NCBI GenBank assembly: GCA_964558715.1
Contig: CAZLFD010000003.1
Location: 2,312 to 66,311 of the forward strand
DNA length: 64,000 nt
From: an uncultured Candidatus Peribacteria bacterium
Lineage (GTDB): Bacteria; Patescibacteriota; Gracilibacteria; CAIRYL01; GCA-016699755
Direction: 5' to 3'
A program made the position numbers and the translations under genes. How positions within the stretch are numbered: the stretch's first letter is position 1; each line of letters starts with the position of its first letter. This document shows, piece after piece, positions 5,051 through 62,560 of the stretch. A model generated the notes under the pieces. The model was not told the origin of the DNA, made no database searches, and saw nothing but the letters and a program-made list of their open reading frames with translations.

Positions 5051-6489
5051 CAGCTTACTGGCAAGAGGTCATATCCGTCAGAAGTATCTCGAATAGTAAA
5101 CCCTAGTTCGGCAATGGCGTCGCGCAGGCGGTCGCTCTCGGGCCAATCTTTCTCTTGGCGGGCGACAAGCCGCTGCTCTGCCAAGGCGATGACTTCGGCA
5201 GGGGCTTTAGTGCCTTTGGGAAACAACGGCACACCGAAAGTATTTTGTGCGAGCGTAAAGAAACCCTGCATCGATTCAAGTTCATCTGCACTCAAAGGGA
5301 GGAGTGGCATGACATCAGACACCAATCCATGCACCGCCGCAATCGCCACAGAGGTGTTGAGGTCGTCATCCATGGCAGCTCTAAAGTCTTGCTCTGCTTG
5401 TTGCGCCAGCGATGCAACGCGGTTTTGCGGACGCGTTTCGCCATTGTCGCCACTTGTGGCGAGGTGTAAAAAATTACGGATTTTCTCGAGCCCGTTCGCT
5501 GCCGCAGTAATAGATTCATCGGTAAGATTCACTTTTGAACGGTAATGATTACTGACCAGAAAAAACCGCACCGCTTCGGTGCTGTTGCCTTTTTCAATGA
5601 GGTCGGCCAGGGTATAAAAATTACCGAGTGATTTACTCATCTTCTTGCCATCGACCATCAGGTGTTCATTGTGCAGCCAAAAACGCGTCGGCTCGCATTC
5701 ATACCCGCAGGCCGATTGGGCGATTTCGTCTTCGTGATGGGGAAAGATCAGGTCGACCCCGCCAGAGTGAATATCGAACGGTAGGTCGAAATATTCATTT
5801 TCCATCACCGAGCATTCTAAATGCCAGCCCGGGCGGCCGGGAAAATCGGTTCCCTCAAAATCAAAATTCCAACTGGGTTCTCCGGGTTTTTCAGCCTTCC
5901 AAAGTACGAAGTCTGACAGGTCGTGCTTTTCGACCTCATCTGCCATCGAACGCGTACCCGTTTTCAGGTTATCAAGGTCGAGATGCAAGAGTTTGCCGTA
6001 CGTGTCATCTGCTGCCCACTTTTTTACATCGAAAAAAATCGAGCCATCCACTTCGTAGGCGTATCCACGTTTTGCAATATTACGAATCAATTCTTGCATG
6101 CCCACAATAAATTCCGTCGCCTTTGGGTTTGCAAAAAAAGCACTTTTAGGAATATTAAGCTGTTCAAGGTCGGCGTAAAACAAATCTTCATATTTTTGGG
6201 TGAACTGCTTCAGCGCCTGCATGGGCTCGGCATCTGGGTAAGCGATTTTAGAGTCACGGATGATCTTGTCTTCGATATCGGTAATATTCATCACCCATTT
6301 CACGTTGTATTGATGACCATGCGTCAACCAACGGCGCAAGGTATCGGCGGCCAGATACGCACGCATGTTACCGATGTGCGCGTGGTTATAAACCGTTGGC
6401 CCGCAGGTATAAAATGAGACCTCGCCATCGCGAATCGGCGAGAACTTTTGGAGCGAGCGACCTAAGGTGTTGAAAAGCTGTAATGTCAT
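5050..6489 (-). CDS. cysS: Cysteine--tRNA ligase
   Basis: HIGH motif (NHAHIGNMRAY), KMSKS motif (KMSKSLGN) and a typical N-terminus MTLQLFNTLGR. Start placed at the internal ATG 6489 rather than the track start 6549. Confidence 0.95.
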   Translation of the reverse strand: MTLQLFNTLGRSLQKFSPIRDGEVSFYTCGPTVYNHAHIGNMRAYLAADTLRRWLTHGHQYNVKWVMNITDIEDKIIRDSKIAYPDAEPMQALKQFTQKYEDLFYADLEQLNIPKSAFFANPKATEFIVGMQELIRNIAKRGYAYEVDGSIFFDVKKWAADDTYGKLLHLDLDNLKTGTRSMADEVEKHDLSDFVLWKAEKPGEPSWNFDFEGTDFPGRPGWHLECSVMENEYFDLPFDIHSGGVDLIFPHHEDEIAQSACGYECEPTRFWLHNEHLMVDGKKMSKSLGNFYTLADLIEKGNSTEAVRFFLVSNHYRSKVNLTDESITAAANGLEKIRNFLHLATSGDNGETRPQNRVASLAQQAEQDFRAAMDDDLNTSVAIAAVHGLVSDVMPLLPLSADELESMQGFFTLAQNTFGVPLFPKGTKAPAEVIALAEQRLVARQEKDWPESDRLRDAIAELGFTIRDTSDGYDLLPVS

Positions 6490-6561
6490 CGTCAATCGAG
6501 AATACTTGGAAGGAGGAAGATACTCCTCTAAACTTACTGCAAATCTCACCTTTTGCGCAAG

Positions 6562-7899
6562 ATGAAACTCGTTCTGATCGGTGCCGGCCCCCTACCGGGT
6601 GATAGCAACAAAGTCGCTTCTGCTGCCGGCTTACGTACAGAACAGTTTTTAGCCGAGCTGCCTGCTGATGCAGATATAACACTGATACTGATAGAAAAGA
6701 GCGACTCACGCACAAGTGAGCCGGAGCAGGCTGTGGATAAACGCAAATGCATCAGTATCGACAAAAATGACTCCCGCTTATTCAAGCGTGTAAAGCAAGC
6801 GTTCGCTGCGACAAAACCAGATGCCGTCATCGGTATTAATACCTTTCCGAGCTACGTCGCTGCCAAATGTGTTGACGACCAAACCCCGCTATGGGCAGAT
6901 ATAAATGGCTGGTCGCTGGCAGAAGTGCAGGCACAAGCATTTTCTAAACAGTCAAACACGCCTCTGGCAATGGCGATTGCACGCGAAAAAACCATTGTAA
7001 AAAGGGCAGATCGGTTCTCGGTTGTTTCGACAGCACAGAAATATGCTTTGTACGGCGAACTCGCCCTTCTTGGACGCTTGACAAAAGACACATTTATGTA
7101 CCCTTTTGTCGAAGTTGTCGAAAATACCTGTCGACCGCTGACCGCGTCAGAATCTGTACAAACATCGTCGAGCTTTCGCGGCAAGCAGATACCCGAAGAT
7201 GCCTTTTTGCTGCTTTGGCTAGGCGGCTTTAATGCCTGGGCTGATGCAGAAACCCTCTTCAAAGTAATGGAAAAAGCGATTACTGCGGATGGAAATATCC
7301 ATTTAGCGATTACCGGCGGCACATTGCCGGGTATCGATGAACAAACGTTTCCCGAGTTTCAGAAGCGAGTGGAAAATTCAAGCATTGCCGATCATATTCA
7401 TTTTCTCAGCTGGCTACCAAAGGCGAGATTGGTAGACCTGATGTACGAAAGTGATGTGGGTCTCAATATCGATCGCATGTGCATAGAGACCGAGACCGGT
7501 GCCCGGAATCGCCTAAACGAAATGCTGCGCTTTCGTCTGCCGCTTATAACCACGGCTGGCTCTGAGATATCTCGCATTTTAGGTGAACACGGGGCAGCGC
7601 TTGTTTGCACAAGTGGAAACGTGTCTGATATCACTGATAAAATCTTGCTTTTATCCAAAGATATTGGAGAGCGCAAAAGAGTATCAGACTGCCAAGAAAC
7701 CTTGATAAAAACGCGTTTTTGTGCGACAATTACTCAGAAGCCAGTACGGCAATGGATCACCAACATACAATGCGCCCCAGAACGGTATCAGAAAGGCACT
7801 CTCGGCAAGTTGGCACTACCGGTGGCAGCAGTGGGCTATTTGCGTACCAACGGGGTGCGCGCATTCTGGCGCAAACTTCGCCAACACATTGGTACATAA
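6562..7899 (+). CDS. Glycosyltransferase, GT-B fold (family 1/GT4-like)
   Basis: C-terminal half reads like a Glycos_transf_1 domain (WLGGFNAWADAETLFKVMEKA..., HFLSWLPKARLVDLMYESDVGLNID..., ETGARNRLNEMLRFRLPLITT). Likely start is ATG 6562 (MKLVLIGAG); the track start 6553 is a TTG. Confidence 0.7.
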   Translation: MKLVLIGAGPLPGDSNKVASAAGLRTEQFLAELPADADITLILIEKSDSRTSEPEQAVDKRKCISIDKNDSRLFKRVKQAFAATKPDAVIGINTFPSYVAAKCVDDQTPLWADINGWSLAEVQAQAFSKQSNTPLAMAIAREKTIVKRADRFSVVSTAQKYALYGELALLGRLTKDTFMYPFVEVVENTCRPLTASESVQTSSSFRGKQIPEDAFLLLWLGGFNAWADAETLFKVMEKAITADGNIHLAITGGTLPGIDEQTFPEFQKRVENSSIADHIHFLSWLPKARLVDLMYESDVGLNIDRMCIETETGARNRLNEMLRFRLPLITTAGSEISRILGEHGAALVCTSGNVSDITDKILLLSKDIGERKRVSDCQETLIKTRFCATITQKPVRQWITNIQCAPERYQKGTLGKLALPVAAVGYLRTNGVRAFWRKLRQHIGT

Positions 7900-9368
7900 T
7901 CTGGCTTAAAAAAGCGCTTATTATTCTTTTAAGCGTCATCTTCGCCATGTCGCTGAGCGGCTGCCGAAAAAAATGTGAAGAGGGGTCTTCTACTTGGCCA
8001 GAATGCCAAAACATCGATGCGACACCGCCTCCCAACTACCGTGATATTGTCGTGTGGAACCTGCACGACCCAAGTGATGTGTTTCGCGGAGCGTTTCAAA
8101 CATTTACCCAAACACGGGAGCAGGGGCTTAGCATCAACTATAAGCAATTTTCGAATCCTTACGAATACGAAGAACTTGTCATTAGCGAAATCGCACAAGG
8201 CAAGGGGCCCGATGTGCTGGCCATCGACCCATTGTGGCTGACAAAGTACCCCGAACTGTTTGCGCCGATACCTCCAGATATCATGGTACCAGAACAGGTT
8301 GATGAGCAATTCTTTCCGGTCGTGAGCAAACACCTGGTCAAAACCGATCCGAGTACACAACTGGCGGATATTTTTGCGTTACCGCTCTATATCGACACCC
8401 TAGCGATCTACTACAACGCCAAGATTTTCCGCAATCAGCTCTACAAGATGAATAAGCCCGGTGAAACGTGGGAAGAAATCAAAGAACAAGCTTTTGACAT
8501 GACCGAACAAGATAAATCGATCGAGCGCTTTCGCCTGTCGACCATAGCGTTGGGCCGAGCCGACAATATTCGGTTAGCGGCGGATATAATCGCTATGCTT
8601 TTTTTGCAGTACGGAGTAGACCTCTTTAACGATGCGGGAGATGCAGCCGTCATCGCCGAGGCGCAAGGCACAGCGGGCGGCAGTGGAAAAAAGTATTTTC
8701 CTGGGGTGGAAGCGATGAACCTCTACACCGGTTTTTCAGATTCGCGCTATAAAAATTATTCGTGGAACCGCCTGATCACTGGGCTATATCCGCAACTCGC
8801 TGAAATCGGTGCTTTTTCCCGTGGCAAGACGGCGATGATCCTTGGCTATTCAACCACATACAAAGACATTCTTGCTACCATCCAAGGGCTTGGCAAAAAC
8901 AATGTCGCAACAATTATTCCGGATGATATCGACACCGTACCGGCACCGCAATTGAACGGCTTGAGCAATGATGCCCGTGTCGCACTCGCGCATTTCTACC
9001 CACTCGCCGTTTCTGTCCGCTCGGCTCATCGTGACGAGGCGTGGCAGCTTGTGCACTACCTCGCAACGAATCAGGATTTTGCTCGTCAATACCACCAACA
9101 GACCGGTAAGCCATCTGCACTCAAGGCACTCAACCCCGAGCAGCAATCAAAAGCGCTTCTTGGTGTGTTTGCCCGACAAGTACCCTATGCCGATCTTTTG
9201 AATGTAATAAGCACTGAAGACTTTGAGCAGATATTTAAAAATGCCATCAAAGAGCTCGAAGTACAAGGGCTCGAAGAGCAGGTCTTGCCCACTATGCAGC
9301 TGCGCTTACAGTGTCTGCTCGACCAGACAAAAGGTGAACAGCTCGATACCGATTGCCCTCAAGTTTAA
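7896..9368 (+). CDS. Extracellular solute-binding lipoprotein (ABC-type, family 1/MalE-like), paralog 1
   Basis: Lipoprotein signal (WLKKALIILLSVIFAMSLSGC) followed by an SBP-like body (VVWNLHDPSDVF..., GKGPDVLAIDPLWLTKY, LPLYIDTLAIYYN). The maximal track ORF is 7719..9368. No ATG/GTG/TTG lies immediately before the signal peptide, so the true start is uncertain (see findings). Confidence 0.75.
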   Translation: MIWLKKALIILLSVIFAMSLSGCRKKCEEGSSTWPECQNIDATPPPNYRDIVVWNLHDPSDVFRGAFQTFTQTREQGLSINYKQFSNPYEYEELVISEIAQGKGPDVLAIDPLWLTKYPELFAPIPPDIMVPEQVDEQFFPVVSKHLVKTDPSTQLADIFALPLYIDTLAIYYNAKIFRNQLYKMNKPGETWEEIKEQAFDMTEQDKSIERFRLSTIALGRADNIRLAADIIAMLFLQYGVDLFNDAGDAAVIAEAQGTAGGSGKKYFPGVEAMNLYTGFSDSRYKNYSWNRLITGLYPQLAEIGAFSRGKTAMILGYSTTYKDILATIQGLGKNNVATIIPDDIDTVPAPQLNGLSNDARVALAHFYPLAVSVRSAHRDEAWQLVHYLATNQDFARQYHQQTGKPSALKALNPEQQSKALLGVFARQVPYADLLNVISTEDFEQIFKNAIKELEVQGLEEQVLPTMQLRLQCLLDQTKGEQLDTDCPQV

Positions 9369-57099: not shown

Positions 57100-57174
57100 T
57101 GGTTGCGGGGGTGGGAATCGAACCCACGACCTACGGGTTATGAGCCCGTCGAGCTACCACTGCTCCACCCCGCG
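57100..57174 (-). tRNA. Initiator tRNA-Met (anticodon CAT), CCA encoded
   Basis: The reverse complement reads CGCGGGG-TG-GAGCAGTGGTAGCTC-G-ACGGG-CTCATAA-CCCGT-AGGTC-GTGGG-TTCGATT-CCCAC-CCCCGCA-ACCA. The C1:A72 mismatch and three G:C pairs closing the anticodon stem are initiator hallmarks. Confidence 0.93.
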
Positions 57175-57940: not shown

Positions 57941-58121
57941 GGGTCAGGGGAAAGGAGCTTTACAATATGCAAACGGCAGGAGTTGCGCAAGGAGGTGTAT
58001 TGTTAATGGTTTTGTGAAGTAGGTGAAACAGCGGAACACCTGCGGCGGCGTAAGAGAAAGGCAAGTTGAGAATGGGGTGCATTCGGACAGGTCTGACTCG
58101 GTGTTTTTGCAAGTCATCAGA

Positions 58122-58153
58122 AAAATGGATTATAGGTTTTTATAATCCATTTT
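58122..58153. terminator. 13-bp perfect inverted repeat (AAAATGGATTATA-ggtttt-TATAATCCATTTT) just downstream of the R-M operon
   Basis: Read directly. On the minus strand the hairpin ends in a T-run (CCATTTTTCTG), about 60 nt after the stop of the methylase gene at 58214. The stem is A/T-rich, so it is weak as a terminator and could instead be an operator. Confidence 0.4.
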
Positions 58154-58213
58154 ATATGTGAGATGTGGATGAGTATGTGGAGCAGGTGAAACAGCAAAAG
58201 TCCTATTGTGGTG

Positions 58214-58975
58214 CTACTGATTCATTTCAACTTTTTGAAACACAAACAAGTGCTCGTGCATGATGAGCAAGAAGTTATGTTCTTTGCTCTTCTTTTCCCA
58301 AAAACCGGTGGCTTTACAATTGTGCTGATGCTTGATGATATCTTCTTTTAACAGGAATCCGGCCTTCAAAAAGCGATCCATGACTTTATATGCCAAAGGC
58401 TGATACATTTTTTTTCTGCGTGTATCACCCATTAGAATTGCGCAAAACTGGCCATTCTTGAGTACACGGTATAATTCTGCAGCAACTTTCTCCATTTCGT
58501 CACAGAATTCATCGAGATTATTGATGCCGGACAGGTCTTGAGCAATTTCCCCCTCACTATACTTAATAATATCCGCGTATGGCGGATGAGTGAGAGCAAA
58601 ATCAATACTAGCATCTTCAATAAAACTAAGATCGCGCGCATCATTCAAATGAAATTCTTGCTTGCTCGGTGTTTTAAAATCGAACTCCAACGACTTCTGC
58701 GATCGTTCAATTGCCCCCGGATTAATATCACAAGCGATTAGGTTTCTGTGAAGAAGCTTGGCTTCTATCGCCGTTGTGCCACCGCCCACCATTGGGTCCA
58801 GTAAGGTATCGCCCTGTTTCGAATATCTGAGTACAAGATTGCGTACAACTTCCGGTGCCCAGTTCCCACGCCAATCAGATTTATGTGTGGCCCAGTTCCC
58901 ACGCCGTCGAAAGCTCCACACAGTAGTACATTCTTGGTCAAACTCTGGCGGGTTCAAGGATTTTGGATCTTTCAT
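58214..58975 (-). CDS. SAM-dependent DNA methyltransferase (N6-adenine/N4-cytosine type), second methylase of the R-M cassette
   Basis: SAM-binding LLDPMVGGGTTAIEA precedes the catalytic (D/N/T)PPY-type motif ALTHPPYADII, a motif order unlike the beta-class DpnA. Lies 4 nt downstream of the endonuclease gene. Confidence 0.72.
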   Translation of the reverse strand: MKDPKSLNPPEFDQECTTVWSFRRRGNWATHKSDWRGNWAPEVVRNLVLRYSKQGDTLLDPMVGGGTTAIEAKLLHRNLIACDINPGAIERSQKSLEFDFKTPSKQEFHLNDARDLSFIEDASIDFALTHPPYADIIKYSEGEIAQDLSGINNLDEFCDEMEKVAAELYRVLKNGQFCAILMGDTRRKKMYQPLAYKVMDRFLKAGFLLKEDIIKHQHNCKATGFWEKKSKEHNFLLIMHEHLFVFQKVEMNQ

Positions 58976-58978
58976 GAT

Positions 58979-59851
58979 TTAGAAAATATAGCCCAGTACT
59001 CCATTTTCCATATCGGCAAGGTTAAACACATAATCGTTATGATTATAAGTTTCCTCCAGCGAATTTCTGGAAGTTAGCCAGCCCTTTCCGTCTGTTATCC
59101 ATACGAAATCGATATCTTGGCGCTTTAGCTCATCATATAAACTACGAAATTCGCCGCACACTGCTTTAAGCTTTGAGCCGCCACCATTGTAAAAATTGGT
59201 TTCAACTAAAGTTAATTTACCTTCATCATTACCGGGCTTCCAGACTGCAAAATCAAAACTTCTTTCAGATTTATCAATCTCAACAACTATGCCCCACCTG
59301 GTCTGAATCATGGTCGGCGTTGCCTGTGCGAGATATTCACACCCACCGGTCGCACAAAATTCTTTTAAGTACTTTTCGACAATGTTTTCCATTATCTTTC
59401 CACCTCGATTCTTTCTGCCATTACTGTCTAGACCCACTTCAACGCCAAATACATAATCAACCAGGTTCTTTACACCGTCTTCCTTAAACAATCTATGTAA
59501 GCCAGACTTCTCAATAAATTCATAACACTTTTTACTCGTGTCTTCCGAATATGTAATTAGCTCCCCAAAGTCGAAAAATTCAGAACTTCTGTCTTCGTAA
59601 TCAAAAATTTCGAGTTGGTCTTCTCGCGTAGCAACTAACACTGGAATAGCACGAATAATATCCGGCTCTTGTCTAAAGAGACGATCGAACTCAGCCTGCA
59701 AATCATCTTTTCCTAGCAGGTAATTTAACTTGTTCAGGGTTATTTCCATTCTCGCCTTATTTTCAAAGACCTTGTTCCAATCCACAAAATACTCCCAAGT
59801 TTTAATTGAGTCTTTCAGGGTAGCCATGAGGTTGCTAAAATTTTTATCCAT
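58979..59851 (-). CDS. Type II restriction endonuclease, DpnII/MboI family (GATC)
   Basis: Strong recalled similarity to R.DpnII: NLVDYVFGVEVGLDSNGRKNRGGKIMENIVEKYL, VETNFYNGGGSKL, FVWITDGKGW. The 290 aa length matches the family. Confidence 0.9.
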   Translation of the reverse strand: MDKNFSNLMATLKDSIKTWEYFVDWNKVFENKARMEITLNKLNYLLGKDDLQAEFDRLFRQEPDIIRAIPVLVATREDQLEIFDYEDRSSEFFDFGELITYSEDTSKKCYEFIEKSGLHRLFKEDGVKNLVDYVFGVEVGLDSNGRKNRGGKIMENIVEKYLKEFCATGGCEYLAQATPTMIQTRWGIVVEIDKSERSFDFAVWKPGNDEGKLTLVETNFYNGGGSKLKAVCGEFRSLYDELKRQDIDFVWITDGKGWLTSRNSLEETYNHNDYVFNLADMENGVLGYIF

Positions 59852-59866
59852 TAGCTTGTTTGATAT

Positions 59867-60817
59867 TTAAACATAGTTGTATACAACAATCTCTGAAACC
59901 TTCCCTCGCTTACTGGCAGCCGAATTTACTGCTCTACCGGCATAAACCGTGTGAATTTTGGCACCATCAATTTCAGAGTATATTTTTCGAATAAATGGCG
60001 TATCTGAATTAGATAACATTACAAAACAACCTTTCTTATGGAGCTTATTGAATGTATCTCGTAATTCAATTTGTTCTTTCTCTAAAAACCCGCCCGCAGT
60101 ATAGCTAGTGAAGCTTGATGTTTTATTAACGGGGTAATACGGCGGATCGAAATACACAAAGTCGCCCTTATTAGCATGCTTCAAAACATCTTTGTAATCA
60201 CGCTTCGCAATCTGTACGTTCTTTAAAAGCTGATGCACATTTCTGAGATTCACTTCATCGCAAATAACTGGGTTATTATATCTACCAAAAGGCACATTAA
60301 ATTCACCTTTTGAATTCACACGATATAAGCCATTAAACCCAGTTCTGTTTAAATAAATAAAGCGCGCAGCAATTTCTACCTTTGACAGATTCTGTGGCTG
60401 TTTGGCTCGCACCGAAAGATAGTACTCTTTCTCGTACTTGTGCTTTTTGAGGCTTTTGATTAATTCCTCCGGACACTCTTTGATCACTTGATAGGTAGTG
60501 ATGAGTTCTTCGTTCACATCCGACAAAACTGCGTTGTAGGGCTGGATATCAAAGAATACAGCACCACCACCGACAAACGGTTCAAAGTAAGTATTATTTT
60601 CAATATCAAACTTGTCTGGCAAGGGATATAGCTTTTGGTATTGGGCTAGTAATTGCCGCTTGCCACCAACCCATTTAATAAAGGGCTTGGCTTTCGCAAT
60701 AGGGCTTGTTGTCAAAAAATTTTCTACCTCATGTACCAAATCTGCAAAAAAACCCCGCTTTCTCCAGCTCGCCACCTTTATCTTGGGAAATCGCTGAAGC
60801 AAGGCATCCGTAGTCAT
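59867..60817 (-). CDS. Dam-family DNA adenine methyltransferase (M.DpnII/M.MboIA-like)
   Basis: KPFIKWVGGKRQLL, FEPFVGGGAVFF (SAM binding), YFDPPYYPV (DPPY catalytic motif). Confidence 0.9.
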   Translation of the reverse strand: MTTDALLQRFPKIKVASWRKRGFFADLVHEVENFLTTSPIAKAKPFIKWVGGKRQLLAQYQKLYPLPDKFDIENNTYFEPFVGGGAVFFDIQPYNAVLSDVNEELITTYQVIKECPEELIKSLKKHKYEKEYYLSVRAKQPQNLSKVEIAARFIYLNRTGFNGLYRVNSKGEFNVPFGRYNNPVICDEVNLRNVHQLLKNVQIAKRDYKDVLKHANKGDFVYFDPPYYPVNKTSSFTSYTAGGFLEKEQIELRDTFNKLHKKGCFVMLSNSDTPFIRKIYSEIDGAKIHTVYAGRAVNSAASKRGKVSEIVVYNYV

Positions 60818-60882: not shown

Positions 60883-61248
60883 TTATTTCCACTCTGTCCA
60901 ATACGAATCGCCATCATCCGAATACATTTCCGCCCATTCTTGTGGCGTGCACTTCGTATGCAAACACGCATCCGAACAAAAGTATTCCCGCCCGCCGTCG
61001 ATGCAATAGCCCTCATCCATCCACTTGCCACAATGCTCGCATGTTCGTTCCGGGTCAATTATGGCTCCGGTTTCGGTAATGTGTTCCACATTCGTCACCT
61101 GCACAAAATCACAGGCAAAGCGGTATTGGCCGCGCTCGTACATTGCTTTCGCTTTTGCTTCCGCGGCTTCTTCATCATTTGCAAACAACCAAATTCTGCC
61201 CACGCCGCTCGCCTGCATCATTACTTCGTAATACTTCATTGTACGCAA
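60883..61248 (-). CDS. Hypothetical protein with a C-terminal FCS/TRASH-like zinc-ribbon
   Basis: CEHCGKWMDEGYCIDGGREYFCSDACLHTKC...YWTEW: a CxxC ... YFCSxxC pattern. The start is possibly ATG 61239. Confidence 0.5.
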   Translation of the reverse strand: MRTMKYYEVMMQASGVGRIWLFANDEEAAEAKAKAMYERGQYRFACDFVQVTNVEHITETGAIIDPERTCEHCGKWMDEGYCIDGGREYFCSDACLHTKCTPQEWAEMYSDDGDSYWTEWK

Positions 61249-61299
61249 AAATCACCCGCATCGTAGCGATCTTGGCGGGGCGTTGTCAGATCAATTTTT

Positions 61300-62319
61300 C
61301 TACCCCTCACTCAGCGCCCGCTTGATCATAAACTCCACATTTTCATTCGCATTCTTGTACTCCAAAATCTTTTTGGGGTGCTTCTGCTGCCACACGCGAA
61401 ATACCTCATCGGCAAAGGCCTGCCCCACCGTGGGCACCCCTTTGAAATCGAAGATGATACGGGTGAATTTCTCGAGATTGGTCAGCACCCGCCGGGCTTG
61501 TGAGCGCGAGACGTGCACGGCACCGTACTGATAGAGCTTGACGTGGATATCAGTGGTGTCGAAGGCGAATTCTTCGTACGCGTACTGGTGAAAGAGCTCG
61601 CTGATGCGCTTGTCGGTGTCGAGAGCGATGGCAAAGGTCACCCGGGTGCCGCGCCTGGTGGAAGCGGAATCTTGTAAGAAGATGTCATCGACGAGGTTGT
61701 CGCGGATCAGCCGCTTGCCGAAACTGTCGAGTTCGAAGGTGTCGGCGATGCGCGAGGTGAAAAAGATACCCTGGCCGGAGTGGGCTTGGGGCATGGTGGT
61801 CGTCTTGCCCTTGAGCAGTTCTTGAATGGCGGCAAGCTCATCTGGCAGATTCTTTTTATCGCGGATACTGCGGAAGACACCGATGCCGGCATCACCGATC
61901 TGAAAGGTGATCGTAGTCGGTGTTTTTTGCCAGGTGATGTGGATGGCTTTAGAATGGCTGTGCTCGATAGCGTTGTTGAGCATTTCGGAAAACGCGTAGT
62001 CGAGGATGCTGACAAGATTGTCGGGCAGTCCGTCGAAGATGCGTTTGCCCTTGCGGATATCGAGGAACACTTGGTGCTCTTGCAGATTTTCGTTTTTGAG
62101 GCGCAGCGAGGTCTCTTGCGTCGTATTGGCAGCGTTTGTGGCGAGCGTGTATTTCGCCCCGCGAGTGCTGCCGCTTTTTTGCAGAATGCCGGTGTCTACC
62201 AGATGTTTCAGCTCTTTGGCGATGCCTTGCGGGGTTGCCTGAGTGTGCTGTCGGATCAGGCTTGTAGTGAGCTGTTCGTGCTCTTGGGCCAATTGAAGGA
62301 TGAGGTCGCGCAGTTTCAT
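61300..62319 (-). CDS. wHTH + GHKL (RsbW/anti-sigma-kinase-like) ATPase + DUF4325 (STAS-like) fusion protein
   Basis: N-terminal wHTH (TSLIRQHTQATPQGIAKELKHLVDTGILQKSG). N-box AFSEMLNNAIEHS, G1 box IGDAGIGV, G2-like HSGQGIFF. The C-terminal third (ARRVLTNLEKFTRIIFDFKGVPTVGQAFADEVFRVW) is typical of DUF4325. Confidence 0.7.
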   Translation of the reverse strand: MKLRDLILQLAQEHEQLTTSLIRQHTQATPQGIAKELKHLVDTGILQKSGSTRGAKYTLATNAANTTQETSLRLKNENLQEHQVFLDIRKGKRIFDGLPDNLVSILDYAFSEMLNNAIEHSHSKAIHITWQKTPTTITFQIGDAGIGVFRSIRDKKNLPDELAAIQELLKGKTTTMPQAHSGQGIFFTSRIADTFELDSFGKRLIRDNLVDDIFLQDSASTRRGTRVTFAIALDTDKRISELFHQYAYEEFAFDTTDIHVKLYQYGAVHVSRSQARRVLTNLEKFTRIIFDFKGVPTVGQAFADEVFRVWQQKHPKKILEYKNANENVEFMIKRALSEG

Positions 62320-62330
62320 GCTGCAGAAAG

Positions 62331-62420
62331 ATTATCAACTTAATTATCAACTTTTATTTTTGAATTATCAACTTAATTATCAACTTTTTGCGTACATATT
62401 CTCAACTCGATTCTCAACTT
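62331..62420. repeat. Iteron-like array: six direct 11-12 bp repeats in three tandem pairs
   Basis: ATTATCAACTT occurs at 62331, 62343, 62364 and 62376. ATTCTCAACT(C/T) occurs at 62398 and 62410. Spacing is 12 bp within pairs and 33-34 bp between pairs. The array starts 12 nt upstream of the ATG at 62319. Confidence 0.9.
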
Positions 62421-62560
62421 AGTGACCTGACTGATCGCTATCGAACTATAAAATGGCTGTGGCTATTTTATACTCTACTACAAAAAAGTCAGGTTTTCTG
62501 TATTGAACATTGCTTCACACTTTTGCCAGAATCTTCTTTGCCCTCTCGAAACGATCCCCC

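What the first reader, a model, noticed from the sequence alone, without database searches (positions are those of the whole stretch)
61300..62319. Single-polypeptide partner-switching-like module fused to a DNA-binding domain (wHTH + RsbW-like GHKL ATPase + STAS-like DUF4325)
The protein combines a winged-helix domain, a GHKL ATPase/kinase core with clear N, G1 and G2 boxes of the anti-sigma-kinase type, and a C-terminal DUF4325 region. DUF4325 is regarded as STAS-like, the fold of anti-anti-sigma factors. A kinase and its putative STAS substrate in one chain, tethered to DNA, suggests a self-contained switch. It sits in an accessory-looking neighbourhood (R-M cassette, zinc-ribbon gene, umuDC) and directly behind an iteron array. 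A role in defence or mobile-element regulation is possible. As far as I know the function of this architecture has not been established experimentally.
Basis: partly seen in the sequence, partly recalled or inferred. Interest (0 to 1): 0.7.

Follow-up and report, generated by a model that had tools for sequence, protein, structure and literature searches.

The report
Self-repressing DNA-binding kinase–STAS switch protein
This gene encodes a widespread but untested one-protein regulator (a DNA-binding domain, an anti-sigma-type kinase and a STAS-like domain) that almost certainly shuts off its own promoter by binding the short repeats in front of it; its link to phage defence is not supported.

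Summary
ORF 61300-62319 (-) encodes 339 aa with an N-terminal winged helix, a SpoIIAB/RsbW-type GHKL domain with invariant ATP-binding boxes, and a C-terminal DUF4325 domain with a STAS fold.

Three additions change the picture:
- **The "iteron array" is the gene's own operator.** In 81 loci from many phyla the last ~120 nt before the start codon hold copies of GTT[T/G]ACAA[T/C] about 30 times more densely than the rest of the loci. Copies sit 11, 22 or 33 nt apart. The motif varies with the recognition helix and supplies the -35 and -10 hexamers (window: TTGATA-17-GATAAT).
- **The canonical STAS phospho-serine is absent.** That position is an invariant Gly-Gln. An invariant Ser-Arg-Ser sits at the start of helix 1.
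- **There is no conserved neighbour.** The 143 immediate neighbours fall into 117 Pfam families; the most frequent, Fic, occurs 4 times. The R-M and umuDC setting is local.

Best reading: a stand-alone, self-repressing one-component regulator in which ATP-dependent kinase/STAS interplay gates DNA binding. The closest characterised system is the two-protein CapK/CapS pair (2026). I rate it a new variant of a known kind. The family is large (927 clusters at 50% identity, E<=1e-30) and I found no experimental study of it.

The parts
61300..62319 (-). CDS, 339 aa: wHTH / SpoIIAB-like GHKL / STAS-like (DUF4325) one-component regulator
   Evidence: ORF list. Pfam. More than 7330 homologues, about 340 aa with full-length coverage. 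927 clusters at 50% identity with E<=1e-30.
62125..62319 (-). Winged helix-turn-helix, residues 1-65. Recognition helix about residues 30-42; T29-P30-Q31-G32 aligns with the family's S-R-Q-Y.
   Evidence: AF2 secondary structure H3-13, H19-24, H30-42, E46-49, E56-59 with pLDDT about 90. PHROGs MarR hit E=7e-6. The helix co-varies with the operator.
61621..62031 (-). GHKL (Bergerat) ATP-binding domain of the SpoIIAB/RsbW type, residues about 97-233. N box E112/N116; G1 D143-G145-G147; lid K170-G-K-x-T174-T175; G2 H180-S-G182-x-G184.
   Evidence: HATPase_c_2 E=2.8e-10. Foldseek best hits SpoIIAB, RsbW and UsfX. Residues conserved in at least 97% of 111 sequences.
61303..61554 (-). STAS-like domain (DUF4325), residues 256-339. 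Invariant S271-R272-S273 at the start of helix 1. Invariant G299-Q300 where SpoIIAA has its phospho-serine.
   Evidence: DUF4325 E=1.5e-15. Domain model pLDDT 85 with beta-alpha-beta-alpha-beta-alpha order. STAS domains dominate the fold search. Invariance.
62331..62386 (-). Four exact operator repeats (AAGTTGATAAT on the gene strand), in two pairs. Starts 12 nt apart within a pair; pairs 33 nt apart.
   Evidence: Coordinates read from the sequence; repeat families. Exact copies occur only here in 64 kb. Same motif and layout in the two closest relatives, while spacers and flanks differ.
62398..62420 (-). Distal pair of degenerate repeats (GAGTTGAGAAT and AAGTTGAGAAT on the gene strand), 7 nt from a promoter-like site that faces umuD.
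   Evidence: promoter-like site on the + strand at 62427-62454.
62343..62371 (-). Promoter-like site P1, TTGATA-17 nt-GATAAT. Both hexamers lie inside operator repeats.
   Evidence: Promoter scan, 10 of 12 matches. The same design is seen family-wide: TTGACA in repeat 2, TACAAT in repeat 3.
62376..62405 (-). Promoter-like site P2, TTGAGA-18 nt-GATAAT, also built from repeats.
   Evidence: Promoter scan, 10 of 12 matches.

Best explanation
The gene encodes a stand-alone one-component transcription regulator that represses its own promoter.

**DNA binding (comparative evidence, strong).**
- The N-terminal winged helix binds the 11-nt repeats AAGTTGATAAT.
- The repeats lie on one face of the DNA, in pairs a helical turn apart.
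- They contain the -35 and -10 hexamers and cover the transcription start, so bound protein excludes RNA polymerase.

**The switch (inference).**
- The SpoIIAB-like domain binds ATP.
- Its interaction with the STAS-like domain, in cis or across subunits, decides whether the protein forms the DNA-binding oligomer.
- The trigger could be phosphorylation of S271/S273 or of the lid threonines T174/T175.
- It could also be a switch between ATP- and ADP-bound complexes, or a ligand bound between the two domains.
- Any of these would release the protein from the operator, as phosphorylation of CapS by CapK does in the two-protein system.

**Cassette behaviour.** The unit carries its own promoter and operator and moves between genomes as a single-gene cassette.

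**Not known.** The signal it senses, and any output beyond self-regulation.
For: **Architecture and ATP site**
- Domains confirmed.
- ATP-binding residues are conserved in at least 97% of 111 sequences.

**Operator**
- TT[TG]A[CT]AA occurs at 19.3 per kb in the 120 nt upstream of 81 family genes, against 0.65 per kb elsewhere in the same loci.
- Spacings cluster at 11-12 (52 cases), 20-22 (56 cases) and 32-33 (6 cases); the sequences are shown.

**Helix/operator covariation**
- A Gln helix (S-R-Q-Y) goes with ACAAT direct repeats; Ala/Val/Thr goes with ACAAC plus an inverted copy. Counts are 38:3 against 2:17, Fisher p=4e-10, not corrected for phylogeny.
- The window's clade (T-P-Q-G helix) has GTTGATAA[T/A] x4 in all three members at 66-100% identity, while spacers and flanks have diverged.
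- Other helix variants have other motifs: ACATAG, ACACTA, CCTTACAAGT.

**Shared module**
- Fic proteins carrying a homologous wHTH (hhalign 96.8%, E=3e-10) have the same TTTACAA repeats upstream.

**Promoter overlap**

**Precedent**
- CapK phosphorylates the STAS-wHTH repressor CapS, which breaks its dimer and derepresses transcription (bioRxiv 10.64898/2026.02.02.703251; EMBO J 2026, PMC13373217).
Against: - No biochemical data exist for this family.
- The canonical STAS phospho-acceptor is absent: Q300 is present in 110 of 111 sequences. Any phosphorylation would therefore have to use a non-canonical site.
- The tools gave no coordinates or PAE, so I could not check whether the STAS domain docks on the kinase active site.
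- A regulator with no visible target other than itself is incomplete as a function. In 791 kb of flanking DNA only about two further genuine-looking arrays were found, both within 1.5 kb of the gene.
- The helix/operator covariation largely separates two clades (within-clade identity 52%, between-clade 43%), so it represents few independent events.
- The repeats resemble consensus promoter hexamers, so part of their conservation could reflect promoter function alone.
Confidence: 0.55

Rival explanations
1. CapK-like sensor kinase. The cis STAS-like domain is not a substrate. Together with the GHKL domain it forms a ligand-binding groove (single-stranded DNA or a nucleotide), as proposed for the internal STAS of CapK. 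Ligand binding activates the kinase, which acts on another protein or on its own wHTH or linker. The window's position between umuDC and an R-M cassette would then reflect DNA-damage sensing.
For: - CapK is HTH-STAS-GHKL, and an AlphaFold 3 model places ssDNA between its STAS and GHKL domains.
- Our STAS lacks the canonical serine but has invariant basic residues (R272, R277, and K170/K172 in the lid).
- 88 of 443 capKS loci adjoin R-M systems, and in the window the gene adjoins an R-M cassette and umuDC.
Against: - The domain order differs: wHTH-GHKL-STAS against HTH-STAS-GHKL.
- No CapS-like second gene or any other conserved partner is present.
- No sequence similarity to any PDB chain was found.
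- The R-M and umuDC setting is not conserved among homologues.
Confidence: 0.2
2. DNA-tethered anti-sigma factor with a built-in antagonist. The RsbW-like domain sequesters a sigma factor, and the cis STAS-like domain competes for the same surface. The operator, which mimics -35 and -10 elements, places the protein where sigma works.
For: - The best structural matches are the anti-sigma factors SpoIIAB, RsbW and UsfX.
- LvrC shows that RsbW-like domains fused to other regulatory domains are proposed anti-sigma factors.
- The operator contains consensus-like promoter hexamers.
Against: - No sigma-factor gene recurs near the gene.
- The family occurs in phyla with very different sigma repertoires and in a DPANN archaeon, where bacterial sigma factors are absent (established knowledge).
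- Nothing tested here bears on sigma binding.
Confidence: 0.08
3. Single-gene conflict module (abortive-infection or toxin-antitoxin-like). The kinase is a growth-arresting effector held in check by the cis STAS-like domain and by tight self-repression, and is released on phage infection.
For: - Patchy cross-phylum distribution at 45-50% identity with variable neighbours, which indicates horizontal transfer.
- More distant homologues sit in prophages directly upstream of terS/terL, a usual site for accessory genes.
- The only recurrent neighbour is a Fic protein resembling SoFic, which shares the wHTH and the operator.
- Stand-alone DUF4325 genes are coupled to VapC-type PIN genes (PMC5499597).
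- Separately, the STAS protein VapS is the antitoxin in VapKSC. VapS was not shown to be DUF4325.
Against: - No PADLOC model matches the protein.
- At most about 10% of immediate neighbours look defence-related, and most are housekeeping genes.
- No homologues in cultured phages or plasmids.
- There is no evidence of toxicity.
Confidence: 0.1
4. Local controller of the adjacent R-M operon in this genome. The gene, the Zn-ribbon gene and the DpnII-type cassette are co-transcribed from the repeat-embedded promoter, so the regulator times restriction and modification like a C protein.
For: - All five genes lie on the - strand with gaps of 51, 65, 15 and 3 nt.
- No terminator-like site lies between 60800 and 62700.
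Against: - The arrangement is not conserved in any of 80 homologous loci.
- G+C is 0.41 across 58001-60000, which covers most of the R-M cassette, against 0.47-0.53 in the windows spanning the gene. This suggests a later insertion.
- A promoter-like site lies between the gene and the Zn-ribbon gene (61289..61260).
- At best this is a local add-on and does not explain the family.
Confidence: 0.05
5. Iteron-binding replication or partition protein of an integrated plasmid or phage; this takes the first reader's "iteron array" literally.
For: Directly repeated 11-nt units next to a DNA-binding protein gene.
Against: - No homologues in 72,556 plasmids or 50,697 phages.
- The same repeats lie immediately upstream of the start codon in chromosomal loci of many phyla and overlap the promoter.
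- No replication gene recurs nearby.
Confidence: 0.02

Closest known systems
CapK/CapS (Chambers et al., bioRxiv 10.64898/2026.02.02.703251; EMBO J 2026, PMC13373217)
   Same: - The same three building blocks: an HTH, an anti-sigma-type GHKL kinase and a STAS domain.
- The output is a wHTH repressor that also controls its own expression.
- The kinase/STAS interaction controls the oligomeric state and DNA binding.
- Some loci adjoin R-M systems.
   Different: - CapK/CapS is two proteins (CapK HTH-STAS-GHKL, CapS STAS-wHTH); here there is one chain in the order wHTH-GHKL-STAS.
- CapS has an absolutely conserved serine on helix 2 (S54); here that position is an invariant Gln.
- CapS binds palindromes with TTAAA half-sites; here the sites are 11-nt direct repeats in phase.
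- capKS precedes immune operons in 346 of 443 cases; this family has no conserved neighbour.
- No detectable sequence similarity was found here.
SpoIIAB/SpoIIAA and RsbW/RsbV partner-switching modules
   Same: - The GHKL domain is closest in fold to SpoIIAB and RsbW, with the same E-x-x-x-N-A-I-x-H N box.
- The C-terminal domain has the fold of the antagonists.
   Different: - Kinase and STAS are fused and carry a DNA-binding domain.
- No sigma factor or PP2C phosphatase is associated.
- The canonical phospho-serine is missing.
Rv1364c of Mycobacterium tuberculosis (PAS-phosphatase-kinase-STAS in one chain; from my own knowledge, cited in PMC10950880 and PMC9138534, listed)
   Same: Precedent for an RsbW-like kinase and its STAS partner in one polypeptide.
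   Different: Rv1364c has sensor and phosphatase domains, no DNA-binding domain, and a phosphorylatable STAS serine.
LvrC of Leptospira (Rec + RsbW-like Bergerat domain; PDB 9qih; PMC13269768)
   Same: An RsbW-like domain fused to a different regulatory domain. It is a structural hit.
   Different: A receiver domain instead of wHTH and STAS. It is a proposed anti-sigma factor within a phosphorelay.
Fic proteins with a C-terminal wHTH (SoFic-like)
   Same: A homologous wHTH and the same TTTACAA repeat operator upstream. They are the only recurrent neighbours.
   Different: The effector is a Fic domain rather than kinase plus STAS.

Membership tests
Pfam HATPase_c_2 (RsbW/SpoIIAB-type GHKL) | Profile match above the gathering score | tested here: met
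   40.7 bits against a cut-off of 27.4, E=2.8e-10
Pfam HATPase_c_2 (RsbW/SpoIIAB-type GHKL) | N, G1 and G2 ATP-binding boxes present | tested here: met
   E112, N116, D143-x-G-x-G147 and G182-x-G184 conserved in at least 97% of 111 sequences
Pfam DUF4325 (STAS-like) | Profile match above the gathering score, and a STAS-like fold | tested here: met
   57 bits against a cut-off of 23. The domain model matches RsbS, SpoIIAA, RsbV and SLC26 STAS domains.
Partner-switching module (anti-sigma kinase + anti-anti-sigma STAS) | Conserved phosphorylatable Ser/Thr at the N-terminus of STAS helix 2 | tested here: not met
   The position equivalent to SpoIIAA S58 is Q300 (110 of 111), preceded by G299 (111 of 111). 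T297 is not conserved. The equivalence comes from hand alignment of the secondary-structure elements.
Partner-switching module (anti-sigma kinase + anti-anti-sigma STAS) | Cognate sigma factor and/or PP2C phosphatase encoded alongside | tested here: not met
   No neighbour family is present in more than 6 of 80 loci within +/-6 genes. Neither type appears among the 25 listed of 117 neighbour Pfam families. Single cases are not excluded.
Partner-switching module (anti-sigma kinase + anti-anti-sigma STAS) | Kinase binds a sigma factor | not testable with these tools
   Needs interaction assays
CapK/CapS | Two adjacent genes: HTH-STAS-GHKL followed by STAS-wHTH | tested here: not met
   A single gene with the order wHTH-GHKL-STAS, uniform at about 340 aa across the family
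CapK/CapS | Located upstream of an immune operon | tested here: not met
   117 Pfam families among 143 immediate neighbours, mostly housekeeping
CapK/CapS | Repressor binds its own promoter region | tested here: inconclusive
   Strong comparative evidence for a self-operator, but no binding assay
CapK/CapS | Kinase activated by single-stranded DNA | not testable with these tools
   Needs biochemistry
Iteron-type replication origin with Rep protein | Plasmid or phage context, an adjacent replication gene, repeats not tied to a promoter | tested here: not met
   No plasmid or phage homologues. The repeats overlap the -35 and -10 hexamers and abut the start codon family-wide.
R-M controller (C) proteins | Small HTH protein with a palindromic C-box upstream of an R-M operon, conserved linkage | tested here: not met
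   339-aa three-domain protein with direct repeats. R-M linkage occurs only in this genome.

The most novel reading that the evidence does not exclude
The family is a single-chain partner switch that needs no partner genes. The kinase and a pseudo-substrate STAS domain form an ATP- or ligand-gated clamp that assembles the protein head-to-tail on phased repeats, and those repeats are also the -35 and -10 elements of its own promoter. The same wHTH-plus-operator cassette is reused by Fic effectors. On this reading the kinase is the real output: a mobile, self-silenced conflict or stress effector that is common in CPR bacteria and in prophages. It would be the one-protein counterpart of CapK/CapS and VapKSC.
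Probability: 0.15. Interest if true: 0.8.

Novelty: new variant of a known kind. Interest (0 to 1): 0.6.

Why it matters
- **Scale.** The family is large: more than 7330 clusters at 90% identity and 927 clusters at 50% identity with E<=1e-30. It spreads across phyla and is especially common in CPR/Patescibacteria, whose regulation is almost unknown.
- **Testability.** It packs a complete kinase/STAS/DNA-binding switch into one protein with a clearly readable operator. That makes it an unusually tractable system for asking how anti-sigma-type kinases and STAS domains control DNA binding.
- **Link to recent work.** It extends the CapK/CapS principle, published in 2026, to a one-component form that lacks the canonical phospho-serine.
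- **Operator design.** The repeats that double as promoter hexamers, with recognition-helix and operator covariation, give direct predictions for specificity engineering and for annotating thousands of "DUF4325 domain-containing" genes.

Tried and rejected
- **PADLOC scan of the protein.** Only insignificant hits, to wHTH parts of SoFic and PsyrT.
- **PDB sequence searches.** The full protein and the C-terminal profile gave nothing significant. Weak helix-hairpin-helix-like hits (Hef E=0.057, RecR) were rejected because the model is alpha/beta and fold search returns STAS domains.
- **tblastn against cultured phages and plasmids.** No match.
- **Viral fold library.** Only generic histidine kinases, plus small stand-alone DUF4325 and GHKL proteins.
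- **Search for a regulon.**
  - In the window the motif is at chance outside the array.
  - In 791 kb of homologue flanks, 4 loci had extra clusters against 3 clusters with shuffled words. Only L031 (a remnant copy of the promoter) and L046 (an array just after the stop codon) look real.
- **Metagenome scan for TTGACAATNNNTTGACAAT.** 15 of 120 loci encode a family member, 12 of them with the motif about 50 nt upstream of the start. The rest look like chance matches or unrelated promoters. In so large a collection a pattern with 16 specified bases is expected by chance, so this does not settle the regulon question.
- **Conserved-partner search.** Clustering of +/-6 genes found none.
- **Docking of STAS on the kinase.** Not checked, because the tools return no coordinates or PAE.
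- **Direct comparison with CapK, CapS or VapS sequences.** Not done, because I had no sequences for them.
Full report
**1. The observation**

The ORF at 61300..62319 (- strand) is real. It has an ATG start and encodes 339 aa.

Pfam gives three matches:
- DUF4325, "STAS-like": E=1.5e-15, aa 274-328.
- HATPase_c_2: E=2.8e-10, aa 97-199.
- HATPase_c: E=2e-5.

The N-terminal winged helix is weak in Pfam. Three other results support it:
- A PHROGs MarR-family hit, E=7e-6.
- A helix-helix-helix-strand-strand pattern at pLDDT about 90 in the AlphaFold model.
- wHTH families precomputed on many homologues.

Fold searches agree with the Pfam assignments:
- The whole model matches SpoIIAB best (1til, 1l0o, 1th8, 1tid; TM 0.74-0.79 on the target), then RsbW and UsfX.
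- A separate model of residues 250-339 (pLDDT 85) matches RsbS, SpoIIAA, RsbV, stressosome and SLC26 STAS domains. TM on the query is 0.6-0.66 and the E-values are weak.

The domain description is therefore confirmed.

**2. The family**

- More than 7330 clusters at 90% identity match the protein. They are nearly all about 340 aa long and match over the full length.
- A profile search of 1.84 billion cluster representatives finds 927 with E<=1e-30 and 3582 with E<=1e-3.
- Members come mainly from CPR/Patescibacteria. Others come from Delta- and Gammaproteobacteria, Actinobacteria, Planctomycetes, Omnitrophota, Nitrospirota, Spirochaetes and a DPANN archaeon. All are typically 42-51% identical to the query, which points to horizontal spread.
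- In 111 non-redundant sequences (32-100% identity) these residues are conserved in at least 97%: E112, N115, N116, H120, D143, G145, G147, K170-G-K172, T174, H180, G182, G184-I-F-F-T-S189, S271-R-S273, A275, R277, D291, G299-Q300 and E305.
- The ATP-binding boxes are therefore intact.

**3. The STAS phospho-site**

I aligned the secondary-structure elements by hand. Strand 3 is RIIFDF, the loop is KGVPTVG and helix 2 is QAFADE. In SpoIIAA the corresponding segments are HIVLNL, EDLSFMD and SSGLG.

- On this alignment the serine phosphorylated in SpoIIAA (S58) corresponds to Q300. CapS carries its phospho-serine (S54) at the equivalent position on STAS helix 2.
- Q300 is present in 110 of 111 sequences, and G299 in all 111.
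- T297 is not conserved.
- The only invariant Ser/Thr in the STAS part is S271-R-S273, at the start of helix 1.
- From my own knowledge, the start of helix 1 lies next to the start of helix 2 in STAS folds. I could not check the geometry, because no coordinates are returned.
- The lid threonines T174 and T175 are also conserved: T174 in all 111 sequences, T175 as Thr or Ser in all 111.

**4. The repeats are the family's operator and promoter**

*The window's array.*
- On the gene strand the upstream region reads GAGTTGAGAAT-c-GAGTTGAGAAT, then 11 nt, then AAGTTGATAAT-t-AAGTTGATAAT, then 10 nt, then AAGTTGATAAT-t-AAGTTGATAAT, then 11 nt, then ATG.
- The four exact copies are the only exact copies of the 9-nt core in 64 kb.

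*The same design across the family.*
- I fetched 80 genome loci of homologues and aligned them at the start codon. Nearly all carry 3-6 copies of (A)GTT[T/G]ACAA[T/C]T in the last ~100 nt.
- The 7-mer TT[TG]A[CT]AA occurs at 19.3 per kb there, against 0.65 per kb in the rest of the loci.
- Spacings cluster at 11-12, 20-22 and 32-33 nt. These are whole helical turns.
- Two layouts exist. One has only direct repeats. The other has a direct pair plus an inverted copy downstream of a -10-like element.

*Covariation with the recognition helix.*
- An S-R-Q-Y helix goes with ACAAT. S-R-A/V/T-Y goes with ACAAC and the inverted layout. The counts are 38:3 against 2:17, p=4e-10.
- This test is not corrected for phylogeny, and the two groups are essentially two clades.
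- Rarer helices have their own motifs: ACATAG, ACACTA, CCTTACAAGT.
- The window's clade has T-P-Q-G in place of S-R-Q-Y. All three members (66-100% identity) have GTTGATAA[T/A] x4, while spacers, flanks and 5' leaders differ.
- More distant relatives (32-38% identity) in prophages often show similar TTTACA or TTGACA repeats.

*A shared wHTH-operator module.*
- Fic proteins that neighbour the gene in 6 of 80 loci carry a homologous wHTH (hhalign 96.8%, E=3e-10).
- One of them has the same TTTACAA repeats upstream.
- wHTH plus operator therefore behaves as a reusable self-regulation cassette.

*Promoter overlap.*
- The motif contains -35-like TTGACA and -10-like TACAAT.
- In the window the scan reports TTGATA-17-GATAAT (62371..62343) and TTGAGA-18-GATAAT (62405..62376). 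Both are made entirely of repeat sequence.
- In many loci the last repeat ends 1-12 nt before the ATG, which implies a very short leader.
- Occupied repeats would therefore cover the -35, the -10 and the start site. I infer negative self-regulation from this. It has not been shown.

**5. Genomic context**

*Across the family.*
- Within +/-6 genes, no neighbour family occurs in more than 6 of 80 loci.
- The 143 immediate neighbours fall into 117 Pfam families, led by Fic with 4 members. They include enolase, ClpP, RuvB and tRNA-modification enzymes.
- By my rough count from the PADLOC table, matches touch at most about 10% of the neighbours: the Fic proteins, one type I REase, one AbiEi and a few others.
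- There are no homologues in cultured phages or plasmids.
- IMG/VR holds 44 more distant relatives. In several Firmicutes-like prophages the gene sits directly upstream of terS and terL.

*In the window.*
- The gene is followed on the same strand by a Zn-ribbon gene (phage family phrog_30009) and a DpnII-type cassette of Dam-like MTase, DpnII REase and an N6/N4 MTase.
- It diverges from umuD/umuC.
- This arrangement is not seen in the homologues. G+C is 0.41 across 58001-60000, which covers most of the R-M cassette.

**6. Mechanism**

*Strongly supported.* This is a self-contained, self-repressing one-component regulator whose wHTH binds phased 11-nt repeats embedded in its own promoter.

*Inferred.* An ATP-dependent interplay between the SpoIIAB-like domain and the STAS-like domain controls the DNA-binding oligomer. 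The nearest tested precedent is CapK/CapS, where the kinase phosphorylates a STAS-wHTH repressor on S54, breaks its dimer and derepresses transcription. Because the canonical serine is missing here, three versions remain open:
- phosphorylation at S271 or S273, or at the lid threonines;
- a nucleotide-state clamp without phosphotransfer;
- a CapK-like ligand groove between the STAS and GHKL domains.

*Unknown.* The signal, and any output beyond self-control. In about 0.79 Mb of flanking DNA I found only two further convincing arrays, both next to the gene. The metagenome pattern scan could not settle the regulon question, because chance matches dominate.

**7. Comparison and novelty**

- The protein is a member of Pfam HATPase_c_2 and DUF4325.
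- It is not a canonical partner-switching module: it has no phospho-serine, no associated sigma factor and no phosphatase.
- It is not CapK/CapS: it is one gene, has a different domain order, binds direct repeats and has no immune operon downstream.
- It is not an iteron/Rep system.
- Literature searches found only passing mentions of DUF4325. The CapK/CapS papers do not treat this architecture.
- I rate it a new variant of a known kind, of moderate to high interest.

Noticed in passing
L013:1143-2174 (-) and five other genome loci (L015, L031, L059, L061, L072): Fic-family genes neighbour the regulator in 6 of 80 loci. The C-terminal wHTH of the L013 Fic protein, the one tested, is homologous to the regulator's N-terminal wHTH (same V-S-R-Q helix and G-S-T..A.Y wing). 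That gene also has TTTACAA x3 repeats upstream, so the wHTH-plus-operator module is shared between two effector families.
   Followed up: partly
L105, L108, L111, L114, L115, L117, L118, L123 (IMG/VR prophage contigs), about positions 5770-9000: Distant homologues (33-38% identity) lie directly upstream of the terminase small and large subunit genes. In L111, the one checked, the preceding gene is a phrog_36 transcriptional regulator. This is a usual slot for accessory or late-regulation genes in temperate phages.
   Followed up: partly
L046:9020-9065; L144 around 166-184; L238 around 2369-2387: A second operator array sits immediately after the regulator's stop codon in some loci. This could mean control of the downstream gene or DNA looping.
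   Followed up: no
window 58214-60817 (-): A complete DpnII-type R-M cassette: MethyltransfD12 Dam-like MTase, DpnII endonuclease and N6_N4 MTase. G+C is 0.41 across 58001-60000, against about 0.5 nearby. It lies about 1 kb from tRNA-Met (57100-57174) and looks like a horizontally acquired island.
   Followed up: partly
window 60883-61248 (-): A 121-aa Cys-rich (zinc-ribbon-like) protein with a phage relative (phrog_30009, E=6.6e-12). It lies 51 nt downstream of the regulator on the same strand.
   Followed up: partly
window 62398-62454: The distal degenerate repeat pair ends 7 nt from a promoter-like site on the + strand (CTGACT-16-TAAAAT, 62427-62454) that faces umuD/umuC. The regulator might also influence this divergent SOS-type operon in this genome.
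   Followed up: no
L223:10950-11106: A metagenome contig ends in at least 11 exact tandem copies of CTGTTGACAAT, preceded by degenerate copies. This is a long array of the same 11-nt unit with no family gene in view.
   Followed up: no
L031:6505-6580: An orphan copy of the operator-promoter, followed by a truncated start of the gene (ATGGATATTGAGAAATAA), lies 1.5 kb upstream of the intact gene. It is a remnant of a duplication or replacement.
   Followed up: no
L127:12357-14284 (same organism as the window): Two adjacent genes with weak or faint T4SS_pilin Pfam hits, close to a Wzy_C gene. The closest homologues of the regulator come from Peregrinibacteria and Peribacteria, which fits a CPR origin for the window.
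   Followed up: no
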